Below are positions 5,885 to 63,217 of a stretch of 64,000 nt of DNA, in pieces. Every line of letters starts with the position of its first letter. The stretch's first letter is position 1. The DNA is taken from positions 1,024,001 through 1,088,000 of the forward strand of contig CM000435.1 in the NCBI GenBank assembly GCA_000165345.1. Reading direction: 5' to 3'. The notes under the pieces were generated by a model that was given only the letters and a program-made list of their open reading frames with translations, made no database searches and was not told the origin of the DNA. Both the position numbers and the translations under genes were made by a program.

Positions 5885-8800
5885 ATGACTTTTTTCAGTA
5901 TAAAGGTCCTTAACCACATAATGTTATGGTTTGGTTTGATCATTTTTTGGGCTATTACGCAAATATATGGCAAATCTCCAGTGGAACATGGAAAGCTAAT
6001 GCGTAATTGCCCCCCTGAATTTACTTATAGTGAGCTTCGAAGACTTACATCAGAAGGATCTTTGGTGGAGGCTCAGAACTTTTTAGACTCTTTGAGATCA
6101 ACTGAGATCAATGTTTTGTATGGAATGATTGAAGTAAGATTTGATACAGACGTTCGAAAGCTTCAAATTGAGCTTCCTAACCTGGAGCTTGCTGATATAA
6201 AAGTATCTTCAAAAATTCGAGAATTTATTTCGTATGAATATGTATTTGATTGTAAAGATATTAAAGAAAGTACCAGGTTCTTGTTTTGGATCATTAGACA
6301 TTTTGATTTGAACTACTTGTCTCCTACCATAGCATTTTCAATCACCAAGTATGTACTTGGAGAGGCTTCCAAAATCTTTGGGAAGGAACATTTTATACCA
6401 GTAACACCTGTTACATCAATTAATTTGTCTGAAGTTATAGCTCAAAATAGTAAAGATGATTTTCCTTCAAGAAAGCAAATCAATGAAGCTATACGGAAGT
6501 TTACTTCCACTGGCAGGTTCCCTGAATATAAGGGAGTTATTGACTTGCCCGACATTACCAGCATTACTCCAGCTTCTATTGAGGATAAAGTTTTGAGAAG
6601 CAGAATCCTAATACTTCAGAGAGGAGGATACGCTCCAAAGAACAAAGATCGTTCTCAAATTCAAACAGTTAAGTATATTATGAGAACTTCCAGGTATTAT
6701 TTGAACATTTATTTATCTGCAGAAATGTCTTATAGGCTTTGGAGTATTGTATATTTTATTATGACAGGAATAAGAATATCTGAATATAAATATAAAATGT
6801 TCCCATTTATCATGAAAAAGAGCCAATCTGATACCTGGCCCCATGAATCTGATGTTTTAGAGGCAATTTCAGGAACTTTAACTAAGTTTGGAATTAAACA
6901 TAAACCTTTGAGTATTCATTCCAGCTGGTATAAAAAATTAAAGCAAGAAGGATATGTACTTTCTGTTCCTCAAAACATAAAAACCTCTCGGTGGTTTTGT
7001 AGATTCTTCCAGCATTATCTTCAAATCATGATTAATCCATACTTACAGTTTAATATATGGAAGACTACTCTTGAGAATCTTTTAGAACCTCATATTAGAC
7101 AAGTCAATGTTTCTGGTGATAAATGTTTTATTAAAGAAGATCCCAAATTCCCGTGGCCAAATTGTAGTCAAGTTCCCATCAATTCTCCTGAATACGATGT
7201 ATTAAAACATGATAAAGCTGTGGACAACTTAACTCATGAATTTGCTCGTATTATCCATAATTTCAATCCTGGATATCCATTTCATGATCTGTGTGAATTA
7301 ACGCGTCAATTGATTGAAACAGGTTCTTTTCGTAGAAAAGTAAGACAACCAATCACTAGAGTAAAGCATGAAATTGCCATTCGTAAACTTGAGAGAAAGA
7401 CATATGTTAGAAATCTTGTAAGATCTTATAATTATGCAAAGAAATACGAGCCTTTCATTCAGCCAAGCGACGAAATGTTGTTCTTCTTTAAAGATTATAT
7501 TGAAAATGACGTTCCTTTGAATGATAAGATCGCTGATAAAATTGCAAGAGAAAAGTTCATGGACGAAGATCTTGAAGATGTTGTTAAGACTAGGAACTTT
7601 GTTATTGACTGTGCGAAAACATATAGTTCTATTACTGCTAGAAAAAGTTGGAACGACTTAGAGATTCGTGAAATCCCAGCTAAAGGAAAGAAAGCCATTA
7701 GTACAGCCTGTAGTAACCTTTTTTACTCAAGACCAAAATGCAAATTTGAGTCTATTCCTCCATTTCATCCAGCAAGAGAACATAGTGATATTTTAACTGG
7801 TGAATTTTCTCTTCGTATATTTTCATATTTTAGAAGTATTGGAGTTTATAATACCATTCCAGATGACTTTTGCCCTGATGCCATTAATGTGATGAGTAAA
7901 ATCTTTAGGATTGAGCCAAAGAACCATGAACAATTAAAGAGAGATTATGCTAAGAATTCCAAAATTCATGAAAGAGATCGATTTATCCGAAATGCTTTGT
8001 TAAAGTTCAAAACTCTTGATAATACTGATGTCCAAAGATCAAGAGCTCGCAAACTGAGTGAGATGATGGAACAAATTGTTAAATCTAAGCTTCAAGATAA
8101 GCTTAAACCAAAAACGTTTGATTATATTTTCGGTAGAATTGTTAATAGGTACTCAGAATTTGTTAGTAAAGCTGATGGTAATTATTGGGAAATTGATGAA
8201 CTGAAAGATATGGTTCGGCTTGGGAAGAGGTTTGTATATTATAACTCTTTCAAACAGTTCCCAAAGAATAAGTTTAAACATGTTTGTGATAAACTTCTTA
8301 CAAATATTGTTCTGAAGATTCATGGTTCTGAAGCAATTATTGAACGTATTAGAAACTCTGACCCCTCTCTTAAGCTCAGCGATCAAAGAATTTCTAGAGA
8401 TATCACCAAAAATCTTTGTTTCAGTCTCGGAAGCTGGCAAATTTCACTTCGAAAAAGAATAAAAAATAAGCTTGAATTCCTTTGGCTTAAAATGAATAAC
8501 CATAAACAAGAATATAAACTTATTGACTCTAATTTGATTCCAATTCCCAAGCACGCTAGCCAAAAATACTATATCCAAGTAGCTGACGCCAATATTATAA
8601 ACTTTTATAATTCATTGGGTACTAATTTGAAGCATCAATTCCCACACTTAGATATAAAGCTCCCAAATACCATTCCAATTGAACCTGAAGTAATGAGACT
8701 TAGAAAGTTGGGATACGATTGTCCACCTCCAAAATCTGCTAAAAGTGATGGAATACCTACTGCTGAGGAATGTATACGATATATTTACAGATATGGACTT

Positions 8801-11560
8801 TATATTTACAATGGCTTGATTCTAGATTTTAAAATCCTTTACAAAGTATACCAGAAATCTTTTATGGATTCAGGATTTCAATCTTTAGCGTATTTACCAA
8901 ACATATATCCCAAATTTCTCAATTTTTCTCTATTGAAATCAAGTTTATTTGATTATAACTTCCACAGATTTGAAACTATATGTTCCTTAAATAAATTAGA
9001 AACCGAATTATATTGGAACCAATATTTTACAGTTGTTGAGAACATTTCCAAAGATTTAATTAAACAATTACATTCTGCAAATGTTATTCTTCCAGGATCA
9101 GCTGATCGTACTAGTAGTACTTACAATATATCCCCCTTAAAAACCAGATCTCGTACTATTTGTGAATTTATTGCCAGAATTCTGAATCCAAACTTTTACA
9201 AGAGTTTTGATGTTAACACTTCTGACTTTTTCAAGGGTCAAATATCAAATTCTGAATATAATAAAGGACTTGTCTGGTATGATTTAAATCAAGTCAACAG
9301 TGGATCTGCACAGCATACGCCTAAACAAATTGATAAGAATGTTATGCGTTCACTTTATACCATCTATTTTGTTCAATCTTGTATTCACTCACTGATGAAA
9401 TACTTTTCTGGTATCCATTTTTTGCATGCAGCTTTATTATGTAGAAAAACAAGAGAATGGAGAGGCTGTGATGAGACTCAGTTTATTGGATATAACTATA
9501 TTGAACATTTGGAGGTTGGTGATCCAATTGAAGAAATTTACTTGAATAGACTATTAAAGGGAGTATTTGTTGATATGGTGACTTTTGAGTTGCAAGAAAA
9601 ATCAACTTCGTTATTCTGGTCAAGCAAGCTTTATGATATGCCAACTGACAGACTTCCAATTTCTTATATGAGATTTTGTCCAGTTTCTATCAGAATACAT
9701 GATTATCTTCAATCTGGGAGGTTCAACAACTTTGTGGATTCTTGTGTTTATGCTTTGGAAACTAGTAATGTTTTTCGTGTTGAAATTAATGGGGACATGT
9801 TTACCATAAAACGAAGTGTTGCTGAAAAGCTTTGTTCAAGTACATTTTGGGGACAAGATTGTAATCACCCTACAATCAAGAGTTCTGCAAAATTTCTTTA
9901 TGAACGTTTAATTCAAGCCCTTAAACTCCCTTCTCCAGTTATTCCAAGCTCAATTATGTGTAATATTGCATATGAAATGGCCTTCAGTAGGAATCCTGTT
10001 AATATCTGCTTTAATCCTAATACTTTCGTGGATACTAGGCCTAAAGCTGGAACAAACCCCTATTCTGAAGACTATAAGCTAAATCACAAAACCAATGATG
10101 AAAAACCCAGACTTAGAACTAAGAAATGGGACACTCCAGAAATGAATTTTGAAAATGCTATTCCTCTCCGCGAAGACCCTATGGGAATGCTTGGGCACAT
10201 TGCAAAAACTTATTCTTTAAGCGAAGTAAATTTTTCTGAGCTTAGAGATGCATGCGAGCAGGCACCAGTTTCCATTAGAGACTGCTCCAAAGTACCTTCT
10301 TTTGTAAAAGAGTATCCAAAAATTGTGAAAAACCCAGAAATCTTAAAGAAAATCAATGAGGAGACCATGAGGTTATTTTACCCTTTAGTCAAAAAAGATA
10401 ACCCAAGGAGTTTTGAAGAATTTCCAATCAGAATTGCCACCTTTGTGGAGCTTTGCAATCTTTCTGTATCAACTTACAATATCAGCCCAGAGCTTTTCAA
10501 CACTGCTTGTGTTTCTTCTTTTGGATGGAATAAACATTTTAAATCCAACCAGGAAATTTGGAAAGGTACAGATTGGCAAACTTCTATACTTTATTGTAGT
10601 TCCACATCCAAATGGAAAAGCTGCTCAAAATGGTCAAACAAGAATAAATTTGAGCTCGAAAATGATCGAGTATTTGAATTATCTTCTTCATATGCTAGTT
10701 CAAGTCCCCTTCAAAAAGCTTCTATTGACTTTATGGCTGCTTTCTTCTCTTCCACTATTTCTCTCTTCCTTTCTGGTGCAAACACTCAAAATATCTCAGA
10801 AGACCCTAAAGACCTTGAAATGATTACAAAATTGAGAGAGAATTATGATATGTTTTGTCCTGCAGCAACTGAGCTTCTTGTAAGTCATAAACTTATTGAT
10901 CAATCGAAATTAAAACCCTCAATTATTGAATTTATGAGGTCTGAGGAAATTTCTTACACTCAAGTAAGGAGAAGAAAGCCAAATAACGGAATTCCATATT
11001 TGTTTTTCAACGCCGATTGCCCTGAAATCCTTACAAATCATATCTTAAACATTGTAAACAGTGATGAGAACTCTGTTAAATCAAATCCTGATGTTCCCTT
11101 ACAATGGTCTAGAAAAGAATTTATCCTCGAATTTGCAGTTAGAGTCTGCAAAAAGCATTTCTCTTGGAAAGACTGCAATTATGACAAAGATATTTTGAAT
11201 AAAAATAATCCACTGGAAATTAACCACTTTGAATATGTTGCCTCTTCAATGTATAGGGAATTCTTGATTAGCTATATTGAAGATAAAGGGTCAGTTCCCA
11301 AGAAAATTGGTAATCATAAAAATGATAACTTTTATGTTTTTTGTAAGCTCTCAATTAACGTAATTTCCGAGCATCCCAGAATAATCCACAGCAACCAAGT
11401 TAGGTCATTAATTGAAAATCTCCTTCCAAAAAAATTCAAAAAATATTCCCAAAATATCGCCAATGTCTTCTTTAGTTCATTCGAAATCTTCCATAAAGGT
11501 GTCAAATATACTAAAAGTATCAAACCTCCAAAAGAAATCACAAAATTCTCATTTTCTTAA
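5885..11560 (+). CDS. Large hypothetical protein of 1891 aa with no domain I recognise. It is probably a lineage-specific protein.
   Basis: One uninterrupted ORF with a real ATG at 5885. It is a 5.7-kb ORF, far longer than chance allows in AT-rich DNA. Only short spurious antisense ORFs lie inside it. Confidence 0.7.
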   Translation: MTFFSIKVLNHIMLWFGLIIFWAITQIYGKSPVEHGKLMRNCPPEFTYSELRRLTSEGSLVEAQNFLDSLRSTEINVLYGMIEVRFDTDVRKLQIELPNLELADIKVSSKIREFISYEYVFDCKDIKESTRFLFWIIRHFDLNYLSPTIAFSITKYVLGEASKIFGKEHFIPVTPVTSINLSEVIAQNSKDDFPSRKQINEAIRKFTSTGRFPEYKGVIDLPDITSITPASIEDKVLRSRILILQRGGYAPKNKDRSQIQTVKYIMRTSRYYLNIYLSAEMSYRLWSIVYFIMTGIRISEYKYKMFPFIMKKSQSDTWPHESDVLEAISGTLTKFGIKHKPLSIHSSWYKKLKQEGYVLSVPQNIKTSRWFCRFFQHYLQIMINPYLQFNIWKTTLENLLEPHIRQVNVSGDKCFIKEDPKFPWPNCSQVPINSPEYDVLKHDKAVDNLTHEFARIIHNFNPGYPFHDLCELTRQLIETGSFRRKVRQPITRVKHEIAIRKLERKTYVRNLVRSYNYAKKYEPFIQPSDEMLFFFKDYIENDVPLNDKIADKIAREKFMDEDLEDVVKTRNFVIDCAKTYSSITARKSWNDLEIREIPAKGKKAISTACSNLFYSRPKCKFESIPPFHPAREHSDILTGEFSLRIFSYFRSIGVYNTIPDDFCPDAINVMSKIFRIEPKNHEQLKRDYAKNSKIHERDRFIRNALLKFKTLDNTDVQRSRARKLSEMMEQIVKSKLQDKLKPKTFDYIFGRIVNRYSEFVSKADGNYWEIDELKDMVRLGKRFVYYNSFKQFPKNKFKHVCDKLLTNIVLKIHGSEAIIERIRNSDPSLKLSDQRISRDITKNLCFSLGSWQISLRKRIKNKLEFLWLKMNNHKQEYKLIDSNLIPIPKHASQKYYIQVADANIINFYNSLGTNLKHQFPHLDIKLPNTIPIEPEVMRLRKLGYDCPPPKSAKSDGIPTAEECIRYIYRYGLYIYNGLILDFKILYKVYQKSFMDSGFQSLAYLPNIYPKFLNFSLLKSSLFDYNFHRFETICSLNKLETELYWNQYFTVVENISKDLIKQLHSANVILPGSADRTSSTYNISPLKTRSRTICEFIARILNPNFYKSFDVNTSDFFKGQISNSEYNKGLVWYDLNQVNSGSAQHTPKQIDKNVMRSLYTIYFVQSCIHSLMKYFSGIHFLHAALLCRKTREWRGCDETQFIGYNYIEHLEVGDPIEEIYLNRLLKGVFVDMVTFELQEKSTSLFWSSKLYDMPTDRLPISYMRFCPVSIRIHDYLQSGRFNNFVDSCVYALETSNVFRVEINGDMFTIKRSVAEKLCSSTFWGQDCNHPTIKSSAKFLYERLIQALKLPSPVIPSSIMCNIAYEMAFSRNPVNICFNPNTFVDTRPKAGTNPYSEDYKLNHKTNDEKPRLRTKKWDTPEMNFENAIPLREDPMGMLGHIAKTYSLSEVNFSELRDACEQAPVSIRDCSKVPSFVKEYPKIVKNPEILKKINEETMRLFYPLVKKDNPRSFEEFPIRIATFVELCNLSVSTYNISPELFNTACVSSFGWNKHFKSNQEIWKGTDWQTSILYCSSTSKWKSCSKWSNKNKFELENDRVFELSSSYASSSPLQKASIDFMAAFFSSTISLFLSGANTQNISEDPKDLEMITKLRENYDMFCPAATELLVSHKLIDQSKLKPSIIEFMRSEEISYTQVRRRKPNNGIPYLFFNADCPEILTNHILNIVNSDENSVKSNPDVPLQWSRKEFILEFAVRVCKKHFSWKDCNYDKDILNKNNPLEINHFEYVASSMYREFLISYIEDKGSVPKKIGNHKNDNFYVFCKLSINVISEHPRIIHSNQVRSLIENLLPKKFKKYSQNIANVFFSSFEIFHKGVKYTKSIKPPKEITKFSFS

Positions 11561-14166: not shown

Positions 14167-17100
14167 CTATAAAAGAACCCCTTTTTGTCTCAGTCCTTTT
14201 CCTTCTGAAGCTGTTTTTTCTCCTTTATAGTTTTTCCTTCCTTTAAACTTAGTGAGTTCTAAACTTGGTTTATCGTGAATTCCTTGTCCAGAAAGTGTAT
14301 GAGAGATATGTTTACTCCCTTTGCTATATCTTTTTTCGGATGGAGACTGAATTTTTGAAAGAAAAGAGCTTTCTTGATTGCTCATCTTTTCTAATTCTGA
14401 TGCAGGACTTGCAGTTTCAATATCACACAAATTATTCTTTCTTTTAACATCTAAAATTGCTAAAGTTTGTTTTTTTACCTCTGTATTTTGGTCATCCTCA
14501 AGGTTTTTCTTCCACTTGTACCTTCTGAACCAGAATAGTATCGCTAAAATTAGCATTCCCAATATTAAGGGAGCGAATAAAATTGCATATAAAGCAGGCC
14601 CAGAAAGTCCTTTACTTTCTGATAGTTTCATTACTTGCTTCGGAACACATTCTATGATAGAAAATATGTTTGTTTCTGACTCTGAGTCCATTTCATCTTG
14701 TTCTTTAAAATTTGATCTATAAAATGAGATAGAGGGAATTTTTGGAAGTGATCCGTGAGATAGTGGTAGATTCAAACTTTCACTATATGTTATTCCATAA
14801 ACCGTTTTAAGTATTAGATTATGAATAAAGTCCATGTCATTACTTTTTGAAATAGTTACAGTATCTCCAGGTATATTATAAAAGTTCCCATTGTTACATG
14901 CCAATAGTATAGGCTCAATCTTTGCTTCATATCCTCTTGAACAAGTTACTTTAAAAACTTTCCAATCTTCACCCTTACTACTAGAAAGATCAAATAGCTC
15001 CTCAACCATGAATTTTTCAGTTCCAAGTACATTAGAAAGGAAACTTGTTCTGCAGTATTTAAGTGAAGCTTCTGCTCCTTTTACACAATTGAACCTTTCT
15101 TCAGAGTTTGATTCCCATTTTCCATTTATACATTGGAAAGTTTCAGAGTCTATTTCTGGATTGTCAGAAACATATCCAGCAGAACAAGAGATTGATCTGG
15201 TGGAACCATGATCATTTCCCACCCCACTTATAATAAATTGACTAAAAGACGAGGGAGAATTTATTTGGTTTTGATAGGGATTTAAGCTTGAATACATATC
15301 TCCACTATAACCAATATTTGTATAAAGCTGTTTTTGATTTGTGTTTGAATTATATATATATTTATTATTGTTTTTATCATCCAAATTACTCTGACCTAAA
15401 TCAGGAAGAGAAAAAGATAAAAGATTGAAAGGTTTGCATGCTTTCTTACAAAGTATTTTTGCTTCATGCTGAGTAATCCTCCATCTCCCATTATCACAAA
15501 TAAAAGGTTGAGAGGCAGGAGAAGGTGAAACTGGGTGATAATTGTAGGAACAAGCCACATTTCTAAAAGCACCTTGTTTGAGAGAGTTATCTCCATTAAT
15601 TTCATACCCTTCTTCCTGATCCTCTATTCCGAGAATTCCCAAGGATGGTTTTGGACAATTTGGAAAATCTAACTGGTTGCTTAGTGAATCCATATCAAAA
15701 GTTCCAACATATGGTGGAGGAGGAGAAATCGAAGTTGATAAAGATCTTGAATGAGAAATTGTTGATTTACTTACTTTGATTCCAAAATCTCTATCAAGAG
15801 AATCTATTTTATTCAATTCATTCGCCAACTGTTCCAATCCTTCTTCTAAAGTCATTAAAACAGTTCTAGAAGACAGTCCTGAGTCTATTAAAACTTCTAC
15901 TACATAGCTCCCAGGCCAAGCTCTGATTCTTGGGATATCAGAAATAGGAATACTCAAGAAACTACTTACTGTCTCACGAATGCTGTTTCTCAATATTTCT
16001 TCTTGAATTGAGTTTGATATTTCAAAGTAATTCAAATCCTTATAAATGAATTCTAAAATTATAAGATCAGTTTTTACTCCAGAACTACAAACTCTATCCA
16101 TGCTGAATCCACATCTTTGTTCCAAATAATCCACACTCCTTTCGCTATTCAGCTTTGGATTATCATTTTCTATCCCTAGAATTCCTCTTTGAATCTCTAA
16201 TTGTGCTGCAAAACAACATCCTCTGTTATTTAATTGATCTAATAATTTCTTCTTACAGTGTGGAGAACACCCAAAGTTTATATGGTAAGGACTACAAATA
16301 TCTTTTTGAGAAATATTTCCAAAGATTGAAGCTCTAAAGGAATCCCACCAGTCTGAACTGTTTTTTATTCCTCCAAATAGAAACTGTCCACAGAATCTAT
16401 TATTCACAGCTTCCTGGCAGAAATACCTTCCGAAAGATCTATATAATAATCCAGCTTGTCTCATTCTCAAGTTATTTGTCTCATTTCCTACTTCTAGTAA
16501 AAGTTGTCCAAAGATTCTAGTCCCAAAGAAAAGACATGAATCCTCTGGAAGATTACGAATACACATATTCATTAAGTTCTGCTTCTTTTTTGTGTCTTTT
16601 TCACTCTCCTTTTCTTTTTCATCTTTTTCTTGTATTAAGGAAAGAAGCCAATTCACTGAAGATCTGTCTGAAGCTATCATTTCTGAAACTGAATTAATAC
16701 ATGAATACTTTTCTTTTGGGTTAGAAAGACCTTTAACACTCAAACAAAGAAGATTTAATGATTTTTCACTTTGTGAAAGTATTATTTGTTTCCAGAAGCC
16801 CTCATTTATATTAGATACCCCATATAAATGATCATCTTTTGACATTTGGTATATAGAATTCTGTCTTCTAACAAAAGATCCTTCTGTTTTTTGATCTATA
16901 TCTTCGTTTTTATTCTGACCTGTAATTTTTGAAAGGTGAGATAAAGCATGTATGAGTCTTAAATTCCTTCTATGACAACTATCCTTTTTGCAAATCTCCT
17001 TTAAAGTTTTTGTTTGACCCAGAAGAAGAGAAGGTTCGTTGACAATCATCAATGTTTCATGAAAGGAGAAGGAACAAACATCTTTAAGGTCCGAAGATTG

Positions 17101-20100
17101 GCATAAATGATACTCTATAATATTTGAGATTGAATTTGCTGCGACACATTCCATTGAAAGCATATTATACTCAAGATTCCGATCCTCTATCGTAAGATCT
17201 GAAGCTTCTTTCTTATATTCATTGAGAGATTCTTTAAGTAAACTCATACATTTTCCTTTACAGAAAGTTTTAATAGTTGTATCTCTTCCTTGTCTATACA
17301 TGGTTCCACATTCCCCACCCCAAACTTCTGAGAATCTTCTAATAAGCTTACAACATTTTCCCGAGTTTTGTTGGCAATTAGCAAAATTTTCCAAAGGGAA
17401 ATTGAGAATATCCTCCTCTATCATATTAGTTGCTTGGGAAACCTTCAAAAGTCCATTTCTTCCACATGGAAGAGATTTAACAGATTCTCTATTTACCCAT
17501 TCTCCATCATTACATGTAAGAGTGACTGAGGCTTCCCTAGAGGAACATCCCACGACTAATTTAGATCCATGATTTGGAACCTCTTCCCTTAGAGAATTTC
17601 CTGAGAGAATATACTTTCCTGAGCTTTCTAATCTGAAAATAAACTCTGGATCACAGGAATTACACTTTCTACAAGAAGAACCTCCACAATCAATTCCTGT
17701 CTCATCTCCATTCTTAATCCCATCATTGCATGAAGAACAATGGTTTTCACAGCTTCCTCCACAATCAACTCCCCATTCATCTCCATTTTGGATTGAATCT
17801 TCACAGCTTGGAGCTGCACATTTAAGACTCATCCTTTCATCTGGGCCAGGAAGAGACCACTTACCATCATTACAAGCCAAGATCTGAAGTTTTGACTTAA
17901 GACTTTCATCTTGTTCCCAACCTGGAATACACCTTATATGTAATTCACTCCCAGAAGCAATTGCCATATTATCTATCAAAAGAGACTCTTTTTGAATATC
18001 CTCAATATAACTAAATCCTCCATCAACACTTAACATTGTTCCTTCTGGAAGTTTACTCAAGGGAAATCCATGACAAGGCTCACAAGTTGGACATTGACTT
18101 CCTCCACAGTCAATTCCTGTCTCATCTCCATTCTTAATCCCATCGTTACATTTGGGACAGTTTTTTGTTCCACAAGAACCTCCACAATCGATTGAGGTTT
18201 CATCTCCATTTAGAACTCCATCAAAACAGGTATCGGGACATTTCTTCTCGCAAACCCCTCCACAATCCACTCCAAATTCTCCCTGATTCTGGATTCCATC
18301 AAAACAGCTTGGTCTTTCACAAATCAATGTCGGAACCTGGAAAACACCATTATAACATTTCAAAGAATCTCTAAGTGGACCTGTTTTCCTAACATATCCT
18401 TTTTTACATCTAATCTTCACTGAATCTCCATGAACAAGCGTTCTTCTTCCTTCTCCAATATTTAAGATTTCAAAAAACTCTCTCAAAGGTTCTAGATCTT
18501 CTAAATTACAGTTTGAAAAGCAGTCGATACTTGGAATCGAAGGTTTCCACTCCCCATTCTTACAAACTATTGTTTCTTCAATATCAGAATTCCCAGGCTT
18601 TGTACAAGCTACAATACGTATATCTCCAGTATCGGCAGAGAAATCTGAATTATTTTGACTTCTAATTAGATATCTAGCTGGAAGTTTTAAAGTAGAGCAT
18701 TTTGATGCACAAATTAATACATTATCAAAGATCCACTCTCCATTAGTACAGCTTGCAGTCTGGTGAAGCTCTCCTCCTTGAATTAAGGTTCCTTGATCAG
18801 AACAGGAAATCACTAATCTCGTTCCGTGAACATACATTCCCTTCCTTTTAACTGATCCAAGCTCATTATTAATTGAATAAGCCTTGCCAAGAACTTGTTC
18901 TGGAGGTTCACAATGATTCATACAAATAGTTTTTGGAATTCCCCAAACTCCATTCAAACATTCGACTATATCATTGGTTCTAGTTCCAATTTGGACTGAC
19001 CCAAAATCCCTTTCACAAGAAATCCTAACCTTAGACCCAGGAAGGCCTCTTTCTAATGCAAGATTCTCAATTTTATAGGCTTTGTTTGAGAAAATCTCCA
19101 TATCTTTGCATTTTCTTTCACAACTAAGTTCATCAGGAAGAGAATTGGAGGTAAGTACATTTGTTGGAGACAAATCTTTGTCCAAAGCAAACCAGGAACC
19201 GTCATAACATCCAAATATAGTTTCCCCAAACTGTCCCATGGGACTCCAATTCTCTGAACATTTAATCCTCGCCATAGATCCATGTTTAAGATATCCAAAG
19301 CTTATTTCTTCACTGTAATCAATGACTAAAGACTTCTCTGAACTCACAGTAGATTCAGATATGGGAATGCATTTCTTGAAACATTTGTATTGATTCTCTG
19401 ATTCCCAACGTCCTTCACTACAAGTAATTTTGAATTCATTGTTTTCTCGATCAATTTTCATTTTCTCATCAGGATATTGAATCAACTTATCTGAATTTTT
19501 ACTACAAGAAATAGTAATTTCAGATCCTGGAGTATGTTTAACTCTGTCTTTTTCGTATTTAAAGACATAGTTTTCATTAGGGAGAGAATAAGGAGGACAA
19601 GATGTCCCACAAATTAATGTCAAAGCACTCCAGACTCCATCTTTACATGTAATCACTTCTGAGCCTTCTGTTCCAACACATTTAACTAAAAGTTTAGAAC
19701 CATTCAAATACTCTGATTCATGATCTTCAGATTCAGAGGAGGGATTTCCAGAGGCAGAATTACTTTGAATGATATAGTTCTGGCTAGAAGAAGAGGAAAT
19801 TGGGTAAGGCTTACATTTTTGGTAACAATGAATTCTTTTGATTACCTCCCATTTACCTCTGACACATCCAAAGCTTCCCACTTCCTCTGTCTCATCTTTC
19901 TTTTCATCTGAATCTTCTTGGTCTCTCTCTTGATCATGAGAAAAACTCTCCAACTCTAAAACTTTCTTTGTAGAAAAGCCTGAACTACACTTAAGTTTTG
20001 CATTAGTTCCTGGAGGAAATAATATTTGATCCGAGGATCCTCTATCGCTTCTTGGAGAATGACTATATTCTAATTGATACCTTGTGATATCATTGTGTTC

Positions 20101-23100
20101 ATAGAAAGACAAAAGATCTAATTCCTTACAGGATTCTCCACTAGTAGTAAAGAATAATTGATTTGGTCCTACATTTCCCCAAGGTTGGTAAGTCAAATCT
20201 GTCAAAGCTCCGAGTTCAGCTGTGATATCATAAACCTCTCCTTCCACCAAATTCTCGTATGGTCTTAGGATTACATCTGATGTCTGATTGGAAATGATAG
20301 AAATTCCTCTATTTTTAGCCTCAAAATCTGTTGGAATATGAATTAAATGGCCAGTTGTTCGTCCTGTAATATTGAACCAGGCCCAATGACCATAGTTCAT
20401 TGCTCTATTAAAGGTAAGCTTAATTTCTGTGTTGTTTGGGGAAACATCTACACTTCCTAATGGAGGATGTATTGCAATCAATGATGGAGGTGACTTTTCT
20501 GGAAAGCTTCTGCAGATAATAGAAATATCTCCATGTTCAATCCATTCTGGTTCTTCCTCTGGGTTAATGGAAACCCACTTTTTCCACTTTGTACTCTTAC
20601 CATCTGGAGGGATATGATTATTTGGCTCTGGTAGAACTGATTCAGCAAAAGAAAGTATATCGCTACTATCTAGATCTCTATCAATTACCCAAGTCCCATT
20701 CTTAGACTCAGAATCCAAAATTGAGTAGTAAATATAAAACTGTTTTCTCTCACCTCCATTCCAAACAGCCTTTCCATTCTTAGGAGCTTTCCATGGCATA
20801 TACAATCCATTAACATTTCCATTGTTTGTACTAAATCCTGTTAAGTACATATAAGGACAAGAAGCGTTTCTACTAATAGTAAATGTCCAGAAAGGAATTC
20901 CATCATTAGGATTTCCATGTAGATCTGAAATTGCACCAGCTTCTAATCCAACTACATAGTTATCTTCAGGAAGAGGAGTCCTGGAATCAAAACTAACCAC
21001 TATTTTCTGATCTCTAACATCAGCCGTATAAAGTACTGGAGCAGTAAATGGAGCTGAATTAGATCCAGAACTAGATCCTTGATTTTTACTTTTGTTCCAC
21101 CAAGTCCACCTGGTAGACTCTGAGTTTCTTGTTTTCTCCTCATTATTCATTACAGGTAATTGTTGGTGGTGATTGTTTGATCTAGACTCTTTTTGAGGCG
21201 GAGAAATAGGAATCTCCAGTGGTCTTGTTCTATAGTATACATTACTTGAGATTACAAGCCTTCTAGGCTGCCAATTCTTTGGATATTCTATATTTTCATT
21301 GAATCTAATAACTAACTGCTTAACAGGAGGAATGAGGGTAGAATGGTTTAAAGGAAAGAATCCTGTTGGATACGGAAGAAGTTGGTCATTCAGACACTTA
21401 TGTTCCGTACAAACTTGTCCTGGTTTGCAATCTTTGTCAGTATTGCACTCTCCAACATTCAAAAGTCCAAGATCAGTATCAAAATCTTCTGCTGAATCAC
21501 ATGGGATCCCATTTCCATCTCTGTCTACTCCACTACATCCACAAAGTCGATTAACTCCAAGAATTGCATTCGTTCCAAGGTTTATTGCACAGTTATTACT
21601 CTTTGGAAGGTTTGGATCTCCTCCTTGAGATTCCTCACTCTGAACAATACATGGGAGTCCCATTCCTCCAGGACCAGTATTTTCCATTTGAGCTTGAACT
21701 TTTTGATAATAATCAGGATCCAGAGCCACATTAGCTCCACATTTAACATAAGGAGCAGTTTGTATAACTCTATACATCTCTCCTCCAATGAATTGTCCAA
21801 TATTTGCAATAGTACAACTCTGTCTTGATAAACATTGCATTGTTCCAAGTCCAATCTGAGCAACACTTGGGAGAACTCCCTGACATTGATTGGTATCCAA
21901 GTTACAGGATGCCAAAGCATTGTGCATGCAATGAGTATTATCAGTACATTCCACAACTCTTACTTGAGCTACTGGAAAGTAGAATTCAGCTGGATCATCA
22001 CAAGGCATTCCCACTGATGCGAAATCTGGACATCCACATAACAACATTGTGTTTGAATTAATCTCACTTCTATTGTATCTTCTTCCTACTCCAAACTGAA
22101 TTTCGCAATCAAAAGGATTACCTCCTTCACAATTCCATTGATTTTGGGAATTAAACATTGATTCTTCTCTTCCCAATATTCTAACTCCACATCCCATCAT
22201 AGGACTTGCTGCTACCTTATATCTAGAAGTTATTTGTTCTCCTAGAATCTTCCCTTTAACTTTACAATCATATCCATCAACACAAAGAATCAAAGGAGGT
22301 TCATATGGATTATTACCAAAGCCTCCATAACAAGTCTTTGGGTTTCCATAACATAATCCATATCCATTAACACAACTAGCACAAGGATCTACCTTTTGAA
22401 GTCTTCTAATTTCAGCTCTTTCTTTGTTCAAAGTGTAATTTTGAGAATTCATAGTCTCTTCCCTTAATTTCTGGTCAGGATCAGTTTTCTGGATTCCTCT
22501 ATGATAAACAACGTTGCCGAGATAAATGTTGTAATCCGAAGAATTAGTACAGCTAGAGTTTTTTGTAATAGTACATCCACATAAAGTAGTAATTTGTGGC
22601 TTTGGCGATAAACTATTAATGTAACATTCAGTTCCATCATTATAAGAAGTACATTTATGAATGTAAATTAGTTCATTTTCGTCCAAATTTCTTCCACAGG
22701 TATTTGAAGCCGAATTATTGATTTCCATAACTCTTGAATTTTCCGATAATCCAAATCCTTGGATTCCTGAAATAGTACAAGGGACATTAGCAGTACAAAT
22801 CTTGGGGTTTTCATTCTTGAATGAAATTTCCTGGCTCAAAAGTTGCCTTTTTATTGTAAGTTTTTGTTTTAAGGATTTCTCCAATAGGTTTTGGGACTCT
22901 TTAAATCCTATAACTAGTAGATTACCAGTAGGAACTTTAAAATCTAAGCGTTTTGAGGGAAGAGTGGTTTCCTTTGGAAATGGAGATCCACATAACTTGT
23001 ACCTGCCTAACTCTAAAACATCAGTAGGAATTCGTAAATTACATGTGTTTTCTGATGTTACAATACATTCATATTTATATAAACTTCTTCCTGAACACTC

Positions 23101-23415
23101 AGAATCGTATGGAATCACTCCAATCTCATAAATTGTTTGCTTTAATGGATGAAAATATCCAGGAACTGAGTCAATAATACATTCCTCTCCCTTATGACAG
23201 AAATAATTCTTTTCTTGTGTTCCAGCAAGTCCAGTACAAAGCTTGTTAAAACATAGTCTTCCTGAACAATCTTGAGACGAAACACATTTTCTGATCTCAA
23301 TCAATTTCCCTAAATCTGGTCCATGCAAATTGCTCCTCACCAGACCTAATGCAGCAAGGCCTAAAAATATATATAAATGAAGTCCTTCTTTAAGAACCCT
23401 ATATAACTGGCTCAT
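14167..23415 (-). CDS. Giant type I membrane glycoprotein of 3082 aa. It has a signal peptide, a very large Cys-rich ectodomain, a single C-terminal TM helix and a basic, Ser-rich cytoplasmic tail. It is a probable surface or adhesion protein.
   Basis: A real ATG at 23415 gives MSQLYRVLKEGLHLYIFLGLAALGLVRS, a signal peptide. The ectodomain contains two clusters of tandem repeats of about 22 residues with the pattern C-x-DG-[IV]-x-NG-[DE]-E-x-G-[IV]-DCGG-[SV]-C, for example CNDGIKNGDETGIDCGGSQCPTC. It also contains many Sushi/CCP-like modules of the form C..NGEW.....C. The TM segment GPALYAILFAPLILGMLILAILFWF is followed by RRYKWKK and a tail of about 110 aa. The 9.2-kb ORF is uninterrupted. 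Confidence 0.85.
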   Translation of the reverse strand: MSQLYRVLKEGLHLYIFLGLAALGLVRSNLHGPDLGKLIEIRKCVSSQDCSGRLCFNKLCTGLAGTQEKNYFCHKGEECIIDSVPGYFHPLKQTIYEIGVIPYDSECSGRSLYKYECIVTSENTCNLRIPTDVLELGRYKLCGSPFPKETTLPSKRLDFKVPTGNLLVIGFKESQNLLEKSLKQKLTIKRQLLSQEISFKNENPKICTANVPCTISGIQGFGLSENSRVMEINNSASNTCGRNLDENELIYIHKCTSYNDGTECYINSLSPKPQITTLCGCTITKNSSCTNSSDYNIYLGNVVYHRGIQKTDPDQKLREETMNSQNYTLNKERAEIRRLQKVDPCASCVNGYGLCYGNPKTCYGGFGNNPYEPPLILCVDGYDCKVKGKILGEQITSRYKVAASPMMGCGVRILGREESMFNSQNQWNCEGGNPFDCEIQFGVGRRYNRSEINSNTMLLCGCPDFASVGMPCDDPAEFYFPVAQVRVVECTDNTHCMHNALASCNLDTNQCQGVLPSVAQIGLGTMQCLSRQSCTIANIGQFIGGEMYRVIQTAPYVKCGANVALDPDYYQKVQAQMENTGPGGMGLPCIVQSEESQGGDPNLPKSNNCAINLGTNAILGVNRLCGCSGVDRDGNGIPCDSAEDFDTDLGLLNVGECNTDKDCKPGQVCTEHKCLNDQLLPYPTGFFPLNHSTLIPPVKQLVIRFNENIEYPKNWQPRRLVISSNVYYRTRPLEIPISPPQKESRSNNHHQQLPVMNNEEKTRNSESTRWTWWNKSKNQGSSSGSNSAPFTAPVLYTADVRDQKIVVSFDSRTPLPEDNYVVGLEAGAISDLHGNPNDGIPFWTFTISRNASCPYMYLTGFSTNNGNVNGLYMPWKAPKNGKAVWNGGERKQFYIYYSILDSESKNGTWVIDRDLDSSDILSFAESVLPEPNNHIPPDGKSTKWKKWVSINPEEEPEWIEHGDISIICRSFPEKSPPSLIAIHPPLGSVDVSPNNTEIKLTFNRAMNYGHWAWFNITGRTTGHLIHIPTDFEAKNRGISIISNQTSDVILRPYENLVEGEVYDITAELGALTDLTYQPWGNVGPNQLFFTTSGESCKELDLLSFYEHNDITRYQLEYSHSPRSDRGSSDQILFPPGTNAKLKCSSGFSTKKVLELESFSHDQERDQEDSDEKKDETEEVGSFGCVRGKWEVIKRIHCYQKCKPYPISSSSSQNYIIQSNSASGNPSSESEDHESEYLNGSKLLVKCVGTEGSEVITCKDGVWSALTLICGTSCPPYSLPNENYVFKYEKDRVKHTPGSEITISCSKNSDKLIQYPDEKMKIDRENNEFKITCSEGRWESENQYKCFKKCIPISESTVSSEKSLVIDYSEEISFGYLKHGSMARIKCSENWSPMGQFGETIFGCYDGSWFALDKDLSPTNVLTSNSLPDELSCERKCKDMEIFSNKAYKIENLALERGLPGSKVRISCERDFGSVQIGTRTNDIVECLNGVWGIPKTICMNHCEPPEQVLGKAYSINNELGSVKRKGMYVHGTRLVISCSDQGTLIQGGELHQTASCTNGEWIFDNVLICASKCSTLKLPARYLIRSQNNSDFSADTGDIRIVACTKPGNSDIEETIVCKNGEWKPSIPSIDCFSNCNLEDLEPLREFFEILNIGEGRRTLVHGDSVKIRCKKGYVRKTGPLRDSLKCYNGVFQVPTLICERPSCFDGIQNQGEFGVDCGGVCEKKCPDTCFDGVLNGDETSIDCGGSCGTKNCPKCNDGIKNGDETGIDCGGSQCPTCEPCHGFPLSKLPEGTMLSVDGGFSYIEDIQKESLLIDNMAIASGSELHIRCIPGWEQDESLKSKLQILACNDGKWSLPGPDERMSLKCAAPSCEDSIQNGDEWGVDCGGSCENHCSSCNDGIKNGDETGIDCGGSSCRKCNSCDPEFIFRLESSGKYILSGNSLREEVPNHGSKLVVGCSSREASVTLTCNDGEWVNRESVKSLPCGRNGLLKVSQATNMIEEDILNFPLENFANCQQNSGKCCKLIRRFSEVWGGECGTMYRQGRDTTIKTFCKGKCMSLLKESLNEYKKEASDLTIEDRNLEYNMLSMECVAANSISNIIEYHLCQSSDLKDVCSFSFHETLMIVNEPSLLLGQTKTLKEICKKDSCHRRNLRLIHALSHLSKITGQNKNEDIDQKTEGSFVRRQNSIYQMSKDDHLYGVSNINEGFWKQIILSQSEKSLNLLCLSVKGLSNPKEKYSCINSVSEMIASDRSSVNWLLSLIQEKDEKEKESEKDTKKKQNLMNMCIRNLPEDSCLFFGTRIFGQLLLEVGNETNNLRMRQAGLLYRSFGRYFCQEAVNNRFCGQFLFGGIKNSSDWWDSFRASIFGNISQKDICSPYHINFGCSPHCKKKLLDQLNNRGCCFAAQLEIQRGILGIENDNPKLNSERSVDYLEQRCGFSMDRVCSSGVKTDLIILEFIYKDLNYFEISNSIQEEILRNSIRETVSSFLSIPISDIPRIRAWPGSYVVEVLIDSGLSSRTVLMTLEEGLEQLANELNKIDSLDRDFGIKVSKSTISHSRSLSTSISPPPPYVGTFDMDSLSNQLDFPNCPKPSLGILGIEDQEEGYEINGDNSLKQGAFRNVACSYNYHPVSPSPASQPFICDNGRWRITQHEAKILCKKACKPFNLLSFSLPDLGQSNLDDKNNNKYIYNSNTNQKQLYTNIGYSGDMYSSLNPYQNQINSPSSFSQFIISGVGNDHGSTRSISCSAGYVSDNPEIDSETFQCINGKWESNSEERFNCVKGAEASLKYCRTSFLSNVLGTEKFMVEELFDLSSSKGEDWKVFKVTCSRGYEAKIEPILLACNNGNFYNIPGDTVTISKSNDMDFIHNLILKTVYGITYSESLNLPLSHGSLPKIPSISFYRSNFKEQDEMDSESETNIFSIIECVPKQVMKLSESKGLSGPALYAILFAPLILGMLILAILFWFRRYKWKKNLEDDQNTEVKKQTLAILDVKRKNNLCDIETASPASELEKMSNQESSFLSKIQSPSEKRYSKGSKHISHTLSGQGIHDKPSLELTKFKGRKNYKGEKTASEGKGLRQKGVLL

Positions 23416-62805: not shown

Positions 62806-62900
62806 TTCTTCCTTTTTTATTTTGAAACTCTCAAGATGAGAATATTTCTTGTTTTTAAAAAATATATTTTCAAAAACTATTACTTTTACTATCCTGTAAT

Positions 62901-62968
62901 TGCATGCGTGGGGACCATATTTGCATATACCGTCTTTATTGGCATGCATACTTGCAAATTTGCATGCG
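62901..62968. promoter_or_regulatory. Cluster of three TGCATGC(G/A) palindromic motifs immediately upstream of the FN2/PA14 gene. There is no GGCGCC motif in this promoter.
   Basis: The motifs are tgcatgcg at 62901, gcatgcat at 62942 and tgcatgcg at 62961, all within 70 nt. Confidence 0.4.
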
Positions 62969-63217
62969 CACTTGTCCACATGCTTAATATTAATTTAATT
63001 AAAATATATATGAAATTCCAATATATAAATTTCAAAGTTTTATTTGTTAGTTAAAAGAGGTAAAATTTCAATATTAACCCTACTTTGATTTTTTTTTTTT
63101 ATAATTTAAATTTAAAAATTCTATTTATAGTTAATACTAAAAAGGATATAAATATAGATATATGTTATTTTATTTAGAAATATCTGGATACTTTGATTAA
63201 TTGAACCAATTTATGCC

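What the first reader, a model, noticed from the sequence alone, without database searches (positions are those of the whole stretch)
14167..23415. 3082-aa surface protein with a distinctive tandem DCGG cysteine repeat and Sushi-like modules
The ectodomain carries two separate clusters of three tandem repeats of about 22 aa each. The repeat pattern is C-x-DG-[IV]-x-NG-[DE]-E-x-G-[IV]-D-C-G-G-[SV]-C, with instances CFDGIQNQGEFGVDCGGVC, CFDGVLNGDETSIDCGGSC, CNDGIKNGDETGIDCGGSQC, and a second cluster CEDSIQNGDEWGVDCGGSC, CNDGIKNGDETGIDCGGSSC. I cannot confidently assign this repeat to a named family. It has Notch LNR-like flavour, DGGDC versus DCGG, but a different cysteine order. Between and around the repeats are many CCP/Sushi-like units of the form C...NGEW...C. 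The protein has a signal peptide and a single TM helix, and a long Ser-rich cytoplasmic tail with possible phospho-regulation. It is a candidate parasite adhesin or receptor.
Basis: partly seen in the sequence, partly recalled or inferred. Interest (0 to 1): 0.65.

Follow-up and report, generated by a model that had tools for sequence, protein, structure and literature searches.

The report
Known Cryptosporidium giant Sushi/ARC-repeat protein
This is the already annotated Cryptosporidium parvum "gigantic extracellular protein"; its odd DCGG cysteine repeat is real, but it is the "archaeal protease-type" (ARC) repeat noted in 2004, a small module common in secreted proteins of archaea and bacteria that still has no database model, structure or tested function.

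Summary
The ORF 14167-23415(-) is real and matches C. parvum Iowa II XP_628605.1/EAK90429.1 exactly. That record is named [quoted passage not shown] and is almost certainly cgd7_4560. The protein has a signal-peptide-like N-terminus, one transmembrane helix, divergent Sushi/CCP modules and DCGG repeats. There are five DCGG repeats (3+2), not six. The 119-aa tail is Lys-rich, not Ser-rich. The repeat is not parasite-specific and not LNR-like. It belongs to a large prokaryotic family: 3,882 cluster representatives at E<=1e-3, in Woesearchaeota, Methanosarcinales, Altiarchaeota, Bacteroidota and others. Consensus: C-x-D-G-[IV]-Q-N-x-x-E-T-G-[VI]-D-C-G-G-x-C-x-x-C, period 24-28 aa. In prokaryotes it forms arrays in secreted proteases, glycan-binding proteins and T9SS cargo. 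Woo et al. 2015, citing Templeton et al. 2004, call it "ARC" and list chromerid proteins combining ARC, Big_5 and CCP. No Pfam or NCBIfam model, PDB sequence or PDB fold match exists. Most likely reading: a type I membrane protein with a long beaded ectodomain, in which ARC units are disulfide-stapled, possibly Ca2+-binding connectors. Its adhesin or receptor role is untested. Verdict: already known; low interest.

The parts
14167..23415 (-). Complete ORF of 3082 aa plus stop. It equals C. parvum Iowa II XP_628605.1/EAK90429.1 'gigantic extracellular protein with interesting sushi (9x) and archaeal protease type repeats' and is probably cgd7_4560.
   Evidence: ORF. (exact-sequence look-up in the cluster). 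(orthologues at 99-51% identity across Cryptosporidium). (the literature names cgd7_4560).
23332..23415 (-). Signal-peptide-like N-terminus, aa 1-28, with h-region LHLYIFLGLAALGLV.
   Evidence: 13-residue hydropathy peak of 2.46 at aa 14. A comparable peak is present in all seven orthologues. No dedicated predictor was run.
22384..23331 (-). N-terminal Cys-containing region, aa 29-344. It is moderately conserved and has no family match.
   Evidence: no Pfam hit. (conservation 0.31-0.62).
21316..22383 (-). The most conserved part of the protein: a Cys-rich region at aa 345-700 with no family assignment.
   Evidence: 0.84-0.96 identity across the genus. (no Pfam hit). (no PDB sequence hit). (no hit in the word-indexed search).
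20878..21057 (-). Weak Big_5-like (bacterial Ig-like) segment, aa 787-846.
   Evidence: PF13205 at E=0.0013 and 19.9 bits, below the cut-off of 23.6.
20143..20496 (-). Big_5 bacterial Ig-like domain, aa 974-1091.
   Evidence: PF13205 at E=2.4e-13 and 51.2 bits (cut-off 23.6).
18319..20130 (-). Array of about eight divergent CCP/Sushi modules, aa 1096-1699. Units at 1096-1197 (pattern only), 1201-1269, 1273-1345, 1349-1432, 1436-1498, 1502-1569, 1573-1632 and 1636-1699.
   Evidence: Cys/Trp pattern. (Pfam Sushi at 41.7 bits and E=1.5e-10 for the array). (33.5 bits for aa 1460-1710). (single units score only 14-18 bits). (the last unit models as a beta module and matches CCP structures).
18070..18306 (-). 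ARC ('archaeal protease-type', DCGG) repeats 1-3, aa 1704-1782. Each unit is about 26 aa with 4 Cys.
   Evidence: (58-66% identity to metagenomic repeat proteins). (207 prokaryotic loci). (3,882 representatives). (AF2 pLDDT 75-83).
17818..18075 (-). CCP/Sushi module between the two ARC clusters, aa 1781-1866.
   Evidence: (Sushi at E=0.075)..
17656..17805 (-). ARC repeats 4-5, aa 1871-1920.
17464..17655 (-). CCP/Sushi module after the second ARC cluster, aa 1921-1984.
   Evidence: (pLDDT 75-86). (CCP hits, for example C4BP 5hyp_A with 69 columns, rmsd 2.5 and probability 1.00).
15658..17463 (-). Cys-containing region of about 600 aa, aa 1985-2586, with no family match.
   Evidence: no significant Pfam hit. 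(no PDB sequence hit). (conservation 0.41-0.79).
14647..15657 (-). Three membrane-proximal Sushi-like units, aa 2587-2656, 2660-2776 and 2788-2923. The assignment rests mostly on the pattern.
   Evidence: (only the middle unit gives a weak Sushi hit, E=0.016).
14527..14595 (-). Single transmembrane helix, aa 2941-2963.
   Evidence: Kyte-Doolittle 19-residue mean up to 2.73; conserved in all orthologues and followed by R[RK]YKWK.
14170..14526 (-). Cytoplasmic tail of 119 aa. It is Lys-rich, poorly conserved and variable in length (about 71-119 aa in orthologues).

Best explanation
Identity (shown). The ORF is the annotated Cryptosporidium parvum gene for the 'gigantic extracellular protein with sushi and archaeal protease type repeats', almost certainly cgd7_4560. 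It is a genus-wide conserved, single-pass type I membrane protein.

Domain order of the ~2,900-aa ectodomain (shown):
- two Cys-rich regions without family assignment
- two Big_5 Ig-like domains
- about 8 CCP/Sushi modules
- 3 ARC repeats
- 1 CCP module
- 2 ARC repeats
- 1 CCP module
- a ~600-aa unassigned region
- about 3 CCP-like modules
- the transmembrane helix and a short basic tail

The DCGG repeat (shown). It is the ARC ('archaeal protease-type') repeat, a ~26-aa unit with 4 Cys. It belongs to a large family of tandem repeats in secreted and cell-surface proteins of archaea and bacteria.

Mechanism (inferred).
- Each ARC unit is a tiny fold stapled by two disulfides. It has almost no regular secondary structure.
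- The conserved D3, N7, E10 and D14 side chains plausibly hold a Ca2+ ion.
- In prokaryotes, ARC arrays lie in secreted proteins that often carry an enzymatic or binding domain and a C-terminal sorting domain. In the one case where I read the positions (P0066), the array lies between the catalytic head and the C-terminal anchor.
- The arrays therefore most likely act as stiff, protease-resistant connectors. In the Cryptosporidium protein they would space and orient neighbouring CCP modules within a long beaded stalk projecting from a parasite membrane.
- The CCP, Big_5 and conserved N-terminal regions would carry the protein-protein or protein-glycan contacts.

My probabilities: identity and family assignment about 0.9; 'structural connector, probably metal-stabilised' about 0.45; 'adhesin or receptor at a parasite surface' about 0.5. 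The confidence value given for this explanation (0.8) refers mainly to the identity and family assignment.
For: Identity:
- The sequence is an exact match to EAK90429.1/XP_628605.1 with that name, on a 1.32-Mb contig.
- Orthologues of 2,955-3,355 aa occur in C. hominis, ubiquitum, felis, xiaoi, ryanae and muris.
- Woo et al. [quoted passage not shown]

Repeat family:
- phmmer of the triplet against 1.84 billion representatives gave 3,882 proteins at E<=1e-3, 1,365 at <=1e-10 and 185 at <=1e-30. Some proteins carry up to 38 DCGG motifs.
- 207 loci were confirmed in prokaryotic genomes. By my count, 35 of the best 80 are archaeal.
- 1,811 units gave the consensus, with E10 at 100%, D3 at 91% and N7 at 90%, none of which the extraction pattern required. 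The period is 24-28 aa.

Context in prokaryotes:
- Of 88 scanned representatives, 30 carry a T9SS sorting domain, 12 carry a reprolysin-type M12 peptidase and 6 carry Peptidase_M43. Others carry M4, M14, CBM, GH26, CAP or endonuclease I domains.
- An Altiarchaeota protein has a subtilase plus ARC repeats.
- P0066 has endonuclease I at 51-280, its ARC array at about 890-1150 and its sorting domain at 1188-1264.

Conservation:
- The 3+2 layout is kept from C. parvum to C. muris.
- The repeat windows score 0.79-0.87 against a protein mean of 0.66.

Structure:
- The AF2 model of the triplet has pLDDT 75-83, with only a beta-bridge and a one-turn helix per unit.
- The flanking modules match factor H, CR2, beta2-GPI and C4BP CCP structures.

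Topology.
Against: - I could not fetch AF1946 or the Templeton 2004 paper. The equation 'ARC = DCGG repeat' therefore rests on the annotation string, the quoted description and the archaeal and protease-linked distribution. It does not rest on a direct alignment.
- The gene number cgd7_4560 is inferred, not read from a record.
- Disulfide connectivity and metal binding are not shown, because model coordinates could not be inspected.
- The spacer role is an inference from the kinds of partner domains. The array position was read in only one protein (P0066).
- High conservation of the repeats within the genus would also fit a direct binding role.
- I found no localisation, stage or phenotype data.
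- The signal peptide was not tested with a predictor.
Confidence: 0.8

Rival explanations
1. The DCGG repeat is a new, parasite-specific cysteine repeat that belongs to no described family.
For: There is no Pfam or NCBIfam model, no PDB sequence match and no fold match for the repeat.
Against: - Thousands of prokaryotic homologues share up to 58-66% identity over the triplet.
- The 2004 GenBank product name already says 'archaeal protease type repeats'.
- Woo et al. 2015 list the ARC domain.
Confidence: 0.02
2. The repeat is a divergent Notch/LNR-type, or other known Ca2+-binding, Cys-rich module such as LNR, LDLa, TSP type 3, disintegrin or the Myxococcus Cys-rich repeat.
For: - It has conserved acidic and amide residues next to cysteines.
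- It co-occurs with Peptidase_M43 (pappalysin-type) and reprolysin-type peptidases in bacteria. In animals these peptidase families carry LNR or disintegrin modules; this rests on my own knowledge.
- One bacterial ARC protein gives a marginal hit to NCBIfam NF033662 'acidic double-disulfide repeat' (E=0.054, 13.3 bits, cut-off 41).
Against: - hmmscan of the repeat segments against all of Pfam-A at E<=10, and against NCBIfam at E<=10, returned nothing.
- The unit has 4 Cys in the order C..DCGG.C..C. From my own knowledge, LNR has 6 Cys and DGGDC at its end.
- The PDB fold searches found nothing.
Confidence: 0.07
3. The ARC repeats are themselves the ligand-binding (adhesive) elements of the protein, for instance Ca2+-dependent glycan or protein binders, rather than passive connectors.
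For: - They are more conserved than the protein average (0.79-0.87 vs 0.66).
- Their number and position are fixed across the genus.
- In prokaryotes they accompany carbohydrate-binding modules and glycoside hydrolases.
Against: - Copy number varies from 1 to about 38 and the partner domains are highly diverse. This is typical of structural repeats.
- The conserved residues are those expected for fold and metal stabilisation, while the surface positions 2, 6, 9 and 11 vary.
Confidence: 0.25
4. The protein is a TRAP/MIC2-type micronemal gliding adhesin, coupled through its tail to the actomyosin motor and shed by rhomboid cleavage.
For: - It has type I topology and adhesive-type modules.
- Other Cryptosporidium Sushi- or TSP-related proteins are assigned to micronemes and proposed as rhomboid substrates (PMC13095730).
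- The transmembrane helix contains Pro and Gly.
Against: - No TSP1 or vWA domain was found.
- The tail is basic (16.8% Lys), has no subterminal Trp and is poorly conserved.
- The gene is not among the ten candidate rhomboid substrates in the passages read from that paper.
Confidence: 0.1

Closest known systems
ARC / 'archaeal protease-type repeat' (Templeton et al. 2004, Genome Res 14:1686, as quoted in Woo et al. 2015, eLife, PMC4501334)
   Same: It is a small tandem domain with characteristically spaced cysteines. The literature names this very protein (cgd7_4560) as the place where the domain was first described. The repeat has archaeal homologues and is fused to proteases in prokaryotes.
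   Different: Nothing differs in kind. What is added here is the consensus, the size of the family (about 3,900 representatives), its equal or greater abundance in Bacteroidota and other bacteria, and the absence of any Pfam, NCBIfam or PDB entry.
Chromerid extracellular proteins Cvel_8234 (ARC + BIG_5 + Notch + CCP) and Vbra_10966 (ARC + BIG_5)
   Same: They show the same unusual combination of ARC with Big_5, and with CCP in Cvel_8234. This suggests that the architecture predates the split between apicomplexans and chromerids.
   Different: I did not see their sequences, so orthology, domain order and size are untested. Cvel_8234 also has a Notch/LNR domain, which was not detected here.
CCP/Sushi arrays of complement regulators (factor H, CR2, C4BP, beta2-glycoprotein I)
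   Same: Both are beads-on-a-string arrays of ~60-aa modules with 4 Cys and 1 Trp. Pfam Sushi passes on the array, and Foldseek matches CCP structures.
   Different: The modules here are very divergent: single units score below Pfam's cut-off and several carry long insertions. The array is interrupted by ARC repeats. There is no evidence of complement binding.
Notch LNR module (Pfam PF00066)
   Same: Both are small, Cys-rich modules with acidic residues in extracellular proteins.
   Different: The Cys number and order differ, and there is no profile match. The repeat is not a member of this family.
Linker or 'stalk' repeat arrays of bacterial T9SS cargo and archaeal surface proteins (for example Big, cadherin-like and FN3 arrays)
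   Same: They have the same context: variable-copy tandem arrays in secreted proteins that carry an enzymatic or binding domain and often a C-terminal sorting domain.
   Different: ARC is much smaller (about 26 aa) and disulfide-based, not a beta-sandwich. Disulfide-rich repeats are unusual for prokaryotic surface proteins; this rests on my own knowledge.

Membership tests
ARC / archaeal protease-type repeat (Templeton 2004; Woo 2015) | Small tandem domain with characteristically spaced cysteines | tested here: met
   Five units of C-x13-C-G-G-x(1-2)-C-x(2-4)-C with a period of 25-26 aa. The same spacing holds in 1,811 units from 274 proteins.
ARC / archaeal protease-type repeat (Templeton 2004; Woo 2015) | Described in the Cryptosporidium extracellular protein cgd7_4560 | tested here: met
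   The window protein is an exact match to EAK90429.1, whose product name includes 'archaeal protease type repeats'. The paper names cgd7_4560. The gene number itself is inferred. It is consistent with a 1.32-Mb contig and with a UniProt accession (Q5CXX5) close to that of cgd7_4330 (Q5CXZ3).
ARC / archaeal protease-type repeat (Templeton 2004; Woo 2015) | Homologous repeats in archaeal secreted proteins, fused to protease domains | tested here: met
   35 of the best 80 prokaryotic loci are archaeal. An Altiarchaeota ORF carries Peptidase_S8 plus ARC. Bacterial members carry M12, M43, M4 and M14 peptidases.
ARC / archaeal protease-type repeat (Templeton 2004; Woo 2015) | Direct alignment with the repeats of A. 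fulgidus AF1946 (papain-like protease) | not testable with these tools
The Templeton 2004 paper is not held. No Peptidase_C1 partner appeared among the families listed for the proteins scanned.
Sushi / CCP / SCR (Pfam PF00084) | Profile match above Pfam's gathering score | tested here: met
   41.7 bits for aa 1096-1699 and 33.5 bits for aa 1460-1710, against a cut-off of 20.7. Single units reach only 14-18 bits. The whole-protein scan listed no Sushi hit.
Sushi / CCP / SCR (Pfam PF00084) | ~60-aa unit with four Cys and a conserved Trp; beta-sandwich fold | tested here: met
   13 units show the C..C..C-x-x-G-x-[WF]..C pattern. The AF2 modules have pLDDT 70-86 and are beta-rich. The top Foldseek hits are all CCP proteins, with per-module hits at rmsd 2.5-3.8 and probability 0.99-1.00.
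   hmmscan against Pfam-A at E<=10 gave 0 families for aa 1695-1800 and aa 1790-1960. NCBIfam at E<=10 gave 0 families.
Big_5 bacterial Ig-like domain (PF13205) | Profile match above the gathering score | tested here: met
   aa 974-1091 score 51.2 bits against a cut-off of 23.6. A second, weaker copy at aa 787-846 scores 19.9 bits.
TRAP/MIC2-family gliding adhesins | TSP1 and/or vWA ectodomain modules, and a short acidic tail with a subterminal Trp | tested here: not met
   There are no TSP1 or vWA hits. The tail is Lys-rich, and its only Trp is juxtamembrane. The family definition comes from my own knowledge.
Type I single-pass membrane protein | Cleavable N-terminal signal peptide plus one transmembrane helix near the C-terminus | tested here: inconclusive
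   Hydropathy and conservation support both features. No SignalP- or TMHMM-type predictor and no experiment were available.

The most novel reading that the evidence does not exclude
The gene and its repeat are known. Even so, ARC may be a large, uncatalogued and structurally new class of metal-stabilised double-disulfide mini-domain. It has about 3,900 cluster representatives, is rich in DPANN archaea, Methanosarcinales and Bacteroidota, and has no Pfam, NCBIfam or PDB entry. On this reading an alveolate ancestor acquired it from prokaryotes, and Cryptosporidium keeps it in a fixed 3+2 arrangement in one giant receptor, because the ARC-CCP junctions form a specific binding platform (for host attachment or gamete/oocyst biology) rather than inert spacers.
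Probability: 0.25. Interest if true: 0.45.

Novelty: already known. Interest (0 to 1): 0.2.

Why it matters
For the scan, this is a correctly spotted but already annotated feature, so little is new. The residual value has three parts.

1. The ARC repeat is still missing from Pfam-A and NCBIfam and has no solved structure, although it occurs in thousands of prokaryotic secreted proteins. A curated model and a structure would improve annotation of many archaeal and Bacteroidota surface proteins.
2. cgd7_4560 is one of the largest and best conserved surface-type proteins of Cryptosporidium. In the literature searchable here, no function, stage or localisation is reported for it. It is therefore a reasonable candidate for tagging and knock-down.
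3. The combination of ARC, Big_5 and CCP shared with chromerids bears on how apicomplexan surface proteins were assembled from prokaryote-type and animal-type modules.

Tried and rejected
- Whole-protein Pfam and NCBIfam scans gave only Big_5. Segment scans were needed to see Sushi.
- The afdb50 fold library was unavailable.
- The second AF2 model (aa 1634-1986, 7 sequences) resolved the CCP modules but not the ARC units, which had pLDDT 26-38.
- Templeton et al. 2004 could not be read. The Guerin et al. 2023 hyperLOPIT paper is not held.
- Searches for cgd7_4560 and other identifiers found only Woo et al. 2015.
- Supplement searches in four Cryptosporidium papers found nothing or no held files.
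- The 'sushi' mentions in the rhomboid-substrate paper and the AGP paper concern other genes.
- The word-indexed homologue search with the most conserved region (aa 345-700) found nothing. In the other two calls of that tool (7, 12), the hits were all close to the query in length. This negative therefore says little about distant orthologues.
- PDB sequence searches of aa 345-700, 691-1100 and 1985-2560 found nothing.
- One alignment of 72 proteins failed internally and was split.
- A motif grep for papain-like active sites among ARC proteins gave nothing convincing.
- I considered recent duplication or gene conversion of the repeats. DNA identity between units is 60-82%, and units 3 and 5 share a ~35-nt identical stretch. 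The 3+2 layout is nevertheless conserved down to C. muris, so the duplication is old.
Full report
**1. What is in the sequence**

The window has 29-41% G+C. One uninterrupted ORF lies on the minus strand at 14167..23415 and encodes 3082 aa. Its neighbours are ordinary eukaryotic genes: an ABC transporter, an RNA methyltransferase, a DEAD-box helicase, an RPA large subunit, an AAA ATPase, a GDI/REP-like protein, an amino-acid transporter and a PA14-domain protein.

The protein matches an existing record exactly. That record is C. parvum Iowa II EAK90429.1 / XP_628605.1 / UniRef100_Q5CXX5, named 'gigantic extracellular protein with interesting sushi (9x) and archaeal protease type ...', on a 1.32-Mb contig. 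Full-length orthologues of 2,955-3,355 aa exist in:
- C. hominis (99% identity)
- C. ubiquitum (85%)
- an unnamed assembly (79%)
- C. felis (70%)
- C. xiaoi and C. ryanae (55% and 54%)
- C. muris (51%)

**2. Check of the observation**

The DCGG motif occurs five times in the protein, against 0.045 expected from composition. It occurs in no other frame of the 64-kb window.

The units are:
- aa 1704-1729 (CFDGIQNQGEFGVDCGGVCEKKC)
- aa 1730-1755 (CFDGVLNGDETSIDCGGSCGTKNC)
- aa 1756-1782 (CNDGIKNGDETGIDCGGSQCPTCEPC)
- aa 1871-1895 (CEDSIQNGDEWGVDCGGSCENHC)
- aa 1896-1920 (CNDGIKNGDETGIDCGGSSCRKC)

So there are 3+2 repeats, not 'two clusters of three'. At the DNA level the five units are 60-82% identical. 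The 3+2 arrangement is present in all seven orthologues.

A hydrophobic N-terminal h-region at aa 14-26 and a single transmembrane helix at aa ~2941-2963, followed by RRYKWKK, are conserved across the genus.

The cytoplasmic tail is 119 aa. Its Ser content is 11.8%, essentially that of the whole protein (10.4%). It is Lys-rich (16.8% vs 6.7%), is the least conserved segment (0.32-0.36) and varies in length among species (about 71-119 aa). 'Ser-rich tail with phospho-regulation' is therefore not supported.

**3. The Sushi modules**

Thirteen units carry the C..C..C-x-x-G-x-[W/F]..C spacing:
- eight in a row at aa 1096-1699
- one between the ARC clusters (aa 1781-1866)
- one after them (aa 1921-1984)
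- three next to the membrane (aa 2587-2923)

They are divergent. Single units reach only 14-18 bits against Pfam Sushi, but the array scores 41.7 bits and aa 1460-1710 score 33.5 bits, against a cut-off of 20.7.

An AF2 model of aa 1634-1986 gave beta-rich modules with pLDDT 70-86. Its PDB Foldseek hits are all CCP proteins: factor XIII B, factor H, CR2, beta2-glycoprotein I, C4BP and PAPP-A. Single-module alignments have rmsd 2.5-3.8 Å at probability 0.99-1.00.

Other assigned parts are a Big_5 Ig-like domain at aa 974-1091 (51.2 bits) and a weaker copy at aa 787-846.

**4. What the DCGG repeat is**

No Pfam-A model matches the repeat segments, even at E<=10. That covers LNR, TNFR_c6, EGF and GCC2_GCC3. 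NCBIfam also gives nothing. There is no PDB sequence match.

The repeat is nevertheless far from unique:
- A word-indexed search with the triplet found 45 short metagenomic and bacterial proteins at 36-78% identity (most of them 50-66%). Many have lipoprotein-type signal sequences.
- A scan of one genome per prokaryotic species confirmed 207 loci. By my count, 35 of the best 80 are archaeal: Woesearchaeota, Methanosarcinales, Altiarchaeota, Nanohaloarchaea, Aenigmatarchaeota and Nanoarchaeota. The other 45 are bacterial: Saprospiraceae and other Bacteroidota, Scalindua, Polyangiaceae and Patescibacteria.
- An exhaustive phmmer search of 1.84 billion cluster representatives gave 3,882 proteins at E<=1e-3, 1,365 at <=1e-10 and 185 at <=1e-30. 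Single proteins carry up to 38 DCGG motifs.

From 1,811 units I derived the consensus C-x-D-G-[IV]-Q-N-[GQ]-x-E-T-G-[VI]-D-C-G-G-x-C-x-x-C, with a period of 24-28 aa. E10 is conserved at 100%, D3 at 91% and N7 at 90%, although the extraction pattern did not require them. The Cryptosporidium units fit this consensus almost perfectly.

**5. It has been described before**

The GenBank product name already calls the repeats 'archaeal protease type repeats'. Woo et al. [quoted passage not shown] The same table lists:
- Cvel_8234 under ARC, BIG_5, Notch and CCP
- Vbra_10966 under ARC and BIG_5
- Cvel_23546 and Vbra_14534 under ARC

The unusual combination of ARC, Big_5 and CCP is therefore shared with chromerids.

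I could not read Templeton 2004 or fetch AF1946. 'ARC = DCGG repeat' is thus an inference. It rests on three points:
- The DCGG unit is the only small tandem Cys module in this protein.
- It has abundant archaeal homologues.
- In prokaryotes it is fused to proteases.

The gene number is also inferred. It is consistent with the chromosome-sized contig and with a UniProt accession (Q5CXX5) close to that of cgd7_4330 (Q5CXZ3).

**6. Context of the repeat in prokaryotes**

I scanned 88 representatives against Pfam:
- 30 carry the T9SS C-terminal sorting domain.
- 12 carry reprolysin-type M12 peptidases.
- 6 carry Peptidase_M43.
- Others carry M4, M14, CBM96, CBM31, GH26, CAP, endonuclease I, tyrosinase, cohesin or FN3 domains.

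Archaeal ORFs combine ARC units with Big_9 or cadherin-like domains, a beta-helix with CBM9, a subtilase (Altiarchaeota, L060), and even an AI-2E-type transporter.

In P0066 the order is endonuclease I (51-280), Ig_7, an ARC array (about 890-1150), then the sorting domain (1188-1264). None of the scanned proteins matched a Pfam family that covers the repeats themselves.

**7. Structure**

**8. How it most likely works**

Shown:
- a secretory-type N-terminus
- one transmembrane helix
- a ~2,900-aa ectodomain made of small disulfide-bonded modules
- ARC units that belong to a prokaryote-rich family of variable-copy tandem repeats in secreted proteins

Inferred:
- Each ARC unit is a two-disulfide knot, probably holding Ca2+ through D3, N7, E10 and D14.
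- ARC arrays act as stiff, protease-resistant connectors.
- In cgd7_4560, two short arrays sit between CCP modules and set their spacing and orientation within a long stalk.
- The ligand contacts are made by the CCP and Big_5 modules and by the very conserved Cys-rich region at aa 345-700 (0.84-0.96 identity in the genus).

The tail is basic and lacks a subterminal Trp, and there are no TSP1 or vWA modules. This argues against a TRAP/MIC2-type motor-coupled adhesin.

A direct binding role for the ARC units is the main rival. Their above-average conservation (0.79-0.87 vs 0.66) and fixed 3+2 layout fit it as well.

I found no stage, localisation or phenotype data.

**9. Verdict**

The object is an already annotated gene whose repeat was recognised twenty years ago. 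Novelty: already known. Interest is low.

Three gaps remain:
- ARC has no Pfam or NCBIfam model and no structure, despite about 3,900 representative proteins.
- Its fold and metal binding are untested.
- The Cryptosporidium protein itself is uncharacterised.

Noticed in passing
window 21316-22383 (-), aa 345-700 of the same protein: This Cys-rich region is the most conserved part of the protein (0.84-0.96 identity across seven Cryptosporidium species, against a mean of 0.66). It has no Pfam, NCBIfam or PDB sequence match. It may be the functional head of the molecule.
   Followed up: partly
window 20521-20865 (-), aa 851-965: A well conserved (0.76-0.85) module lies between the two Big_5 domains (…NGLYMPWKAPKNGKAVWNGGERKQFYIYYSIL…GTWVIDRD…). 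It has no family match.
   Followed up: no
window 17666-17725 and 18086-18145: ARC units 5 and 3 are 82% identical over 60 nt and share a ~35-nt identical stretch. The other unit pairs are 60-77% identical. This suggests a common origin of the last unit of each cluster or past gene conversion, although the 3+2 layout is old (present in C. muris).
   Followed up: partly
window 14167-23415 (method note): hmmscan of the whole 3082-aa protein listed no Sushi hit even at E<=1. The same model scored 41.7 bits on aa 1096-1699 alone. Long multi-module proteins need segment-wise scanning.
   Followed up: yes
window 60670-62979 (-): A 770-aa ORF has a PA14 domain (E=1.1e-23). It is another extracellular, glycan-binding-type protein in the same window.
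   Followed up: no
window 5885-11560 (+): A 1891-aa ORF next but one to the giant gene has no Pfam match at E<=1e-5.
   Followed up: no
L060:2-4402 (Altiarchaeota MAG) and L048:3542-5095 (Altiarchaeota MAG): In L060, ARC repeats are fused to a Peptidase_S8 subtilase with CARDB and Big_13 domains, an archaeal 'protease-type' context. In L048, three ARC units sit in the same ORF as an AI-2E family transporter domain (aa 274-510), an unusual fusion of a Cys-rich extracellular repeat to a polytopic transporter.
   Followed up: no
P0066-P0189 (representatives): 11 of 48 long ARC proteins carry a reprolysin-type M12 metallopeptidase and 4 carry Peptidase_M43. Animal ADAMs and pappalysins carry disintegrin or LNR modules alongside these peptidase types (own knowledge). 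A possible analogy or distant relation was not resolved.
   Followed up: partly
P0041 (EukProt 'Awhi_evm1s9864'): One ARC-repeat hit comes from a eukaryotic transcriptome or proteome set. The prefix may stand for Abeoforma whisleri, but that is my guess. ARC may therefore occur in eukaryotes outside alveolates, or this may be contamination.
   Followed up: no
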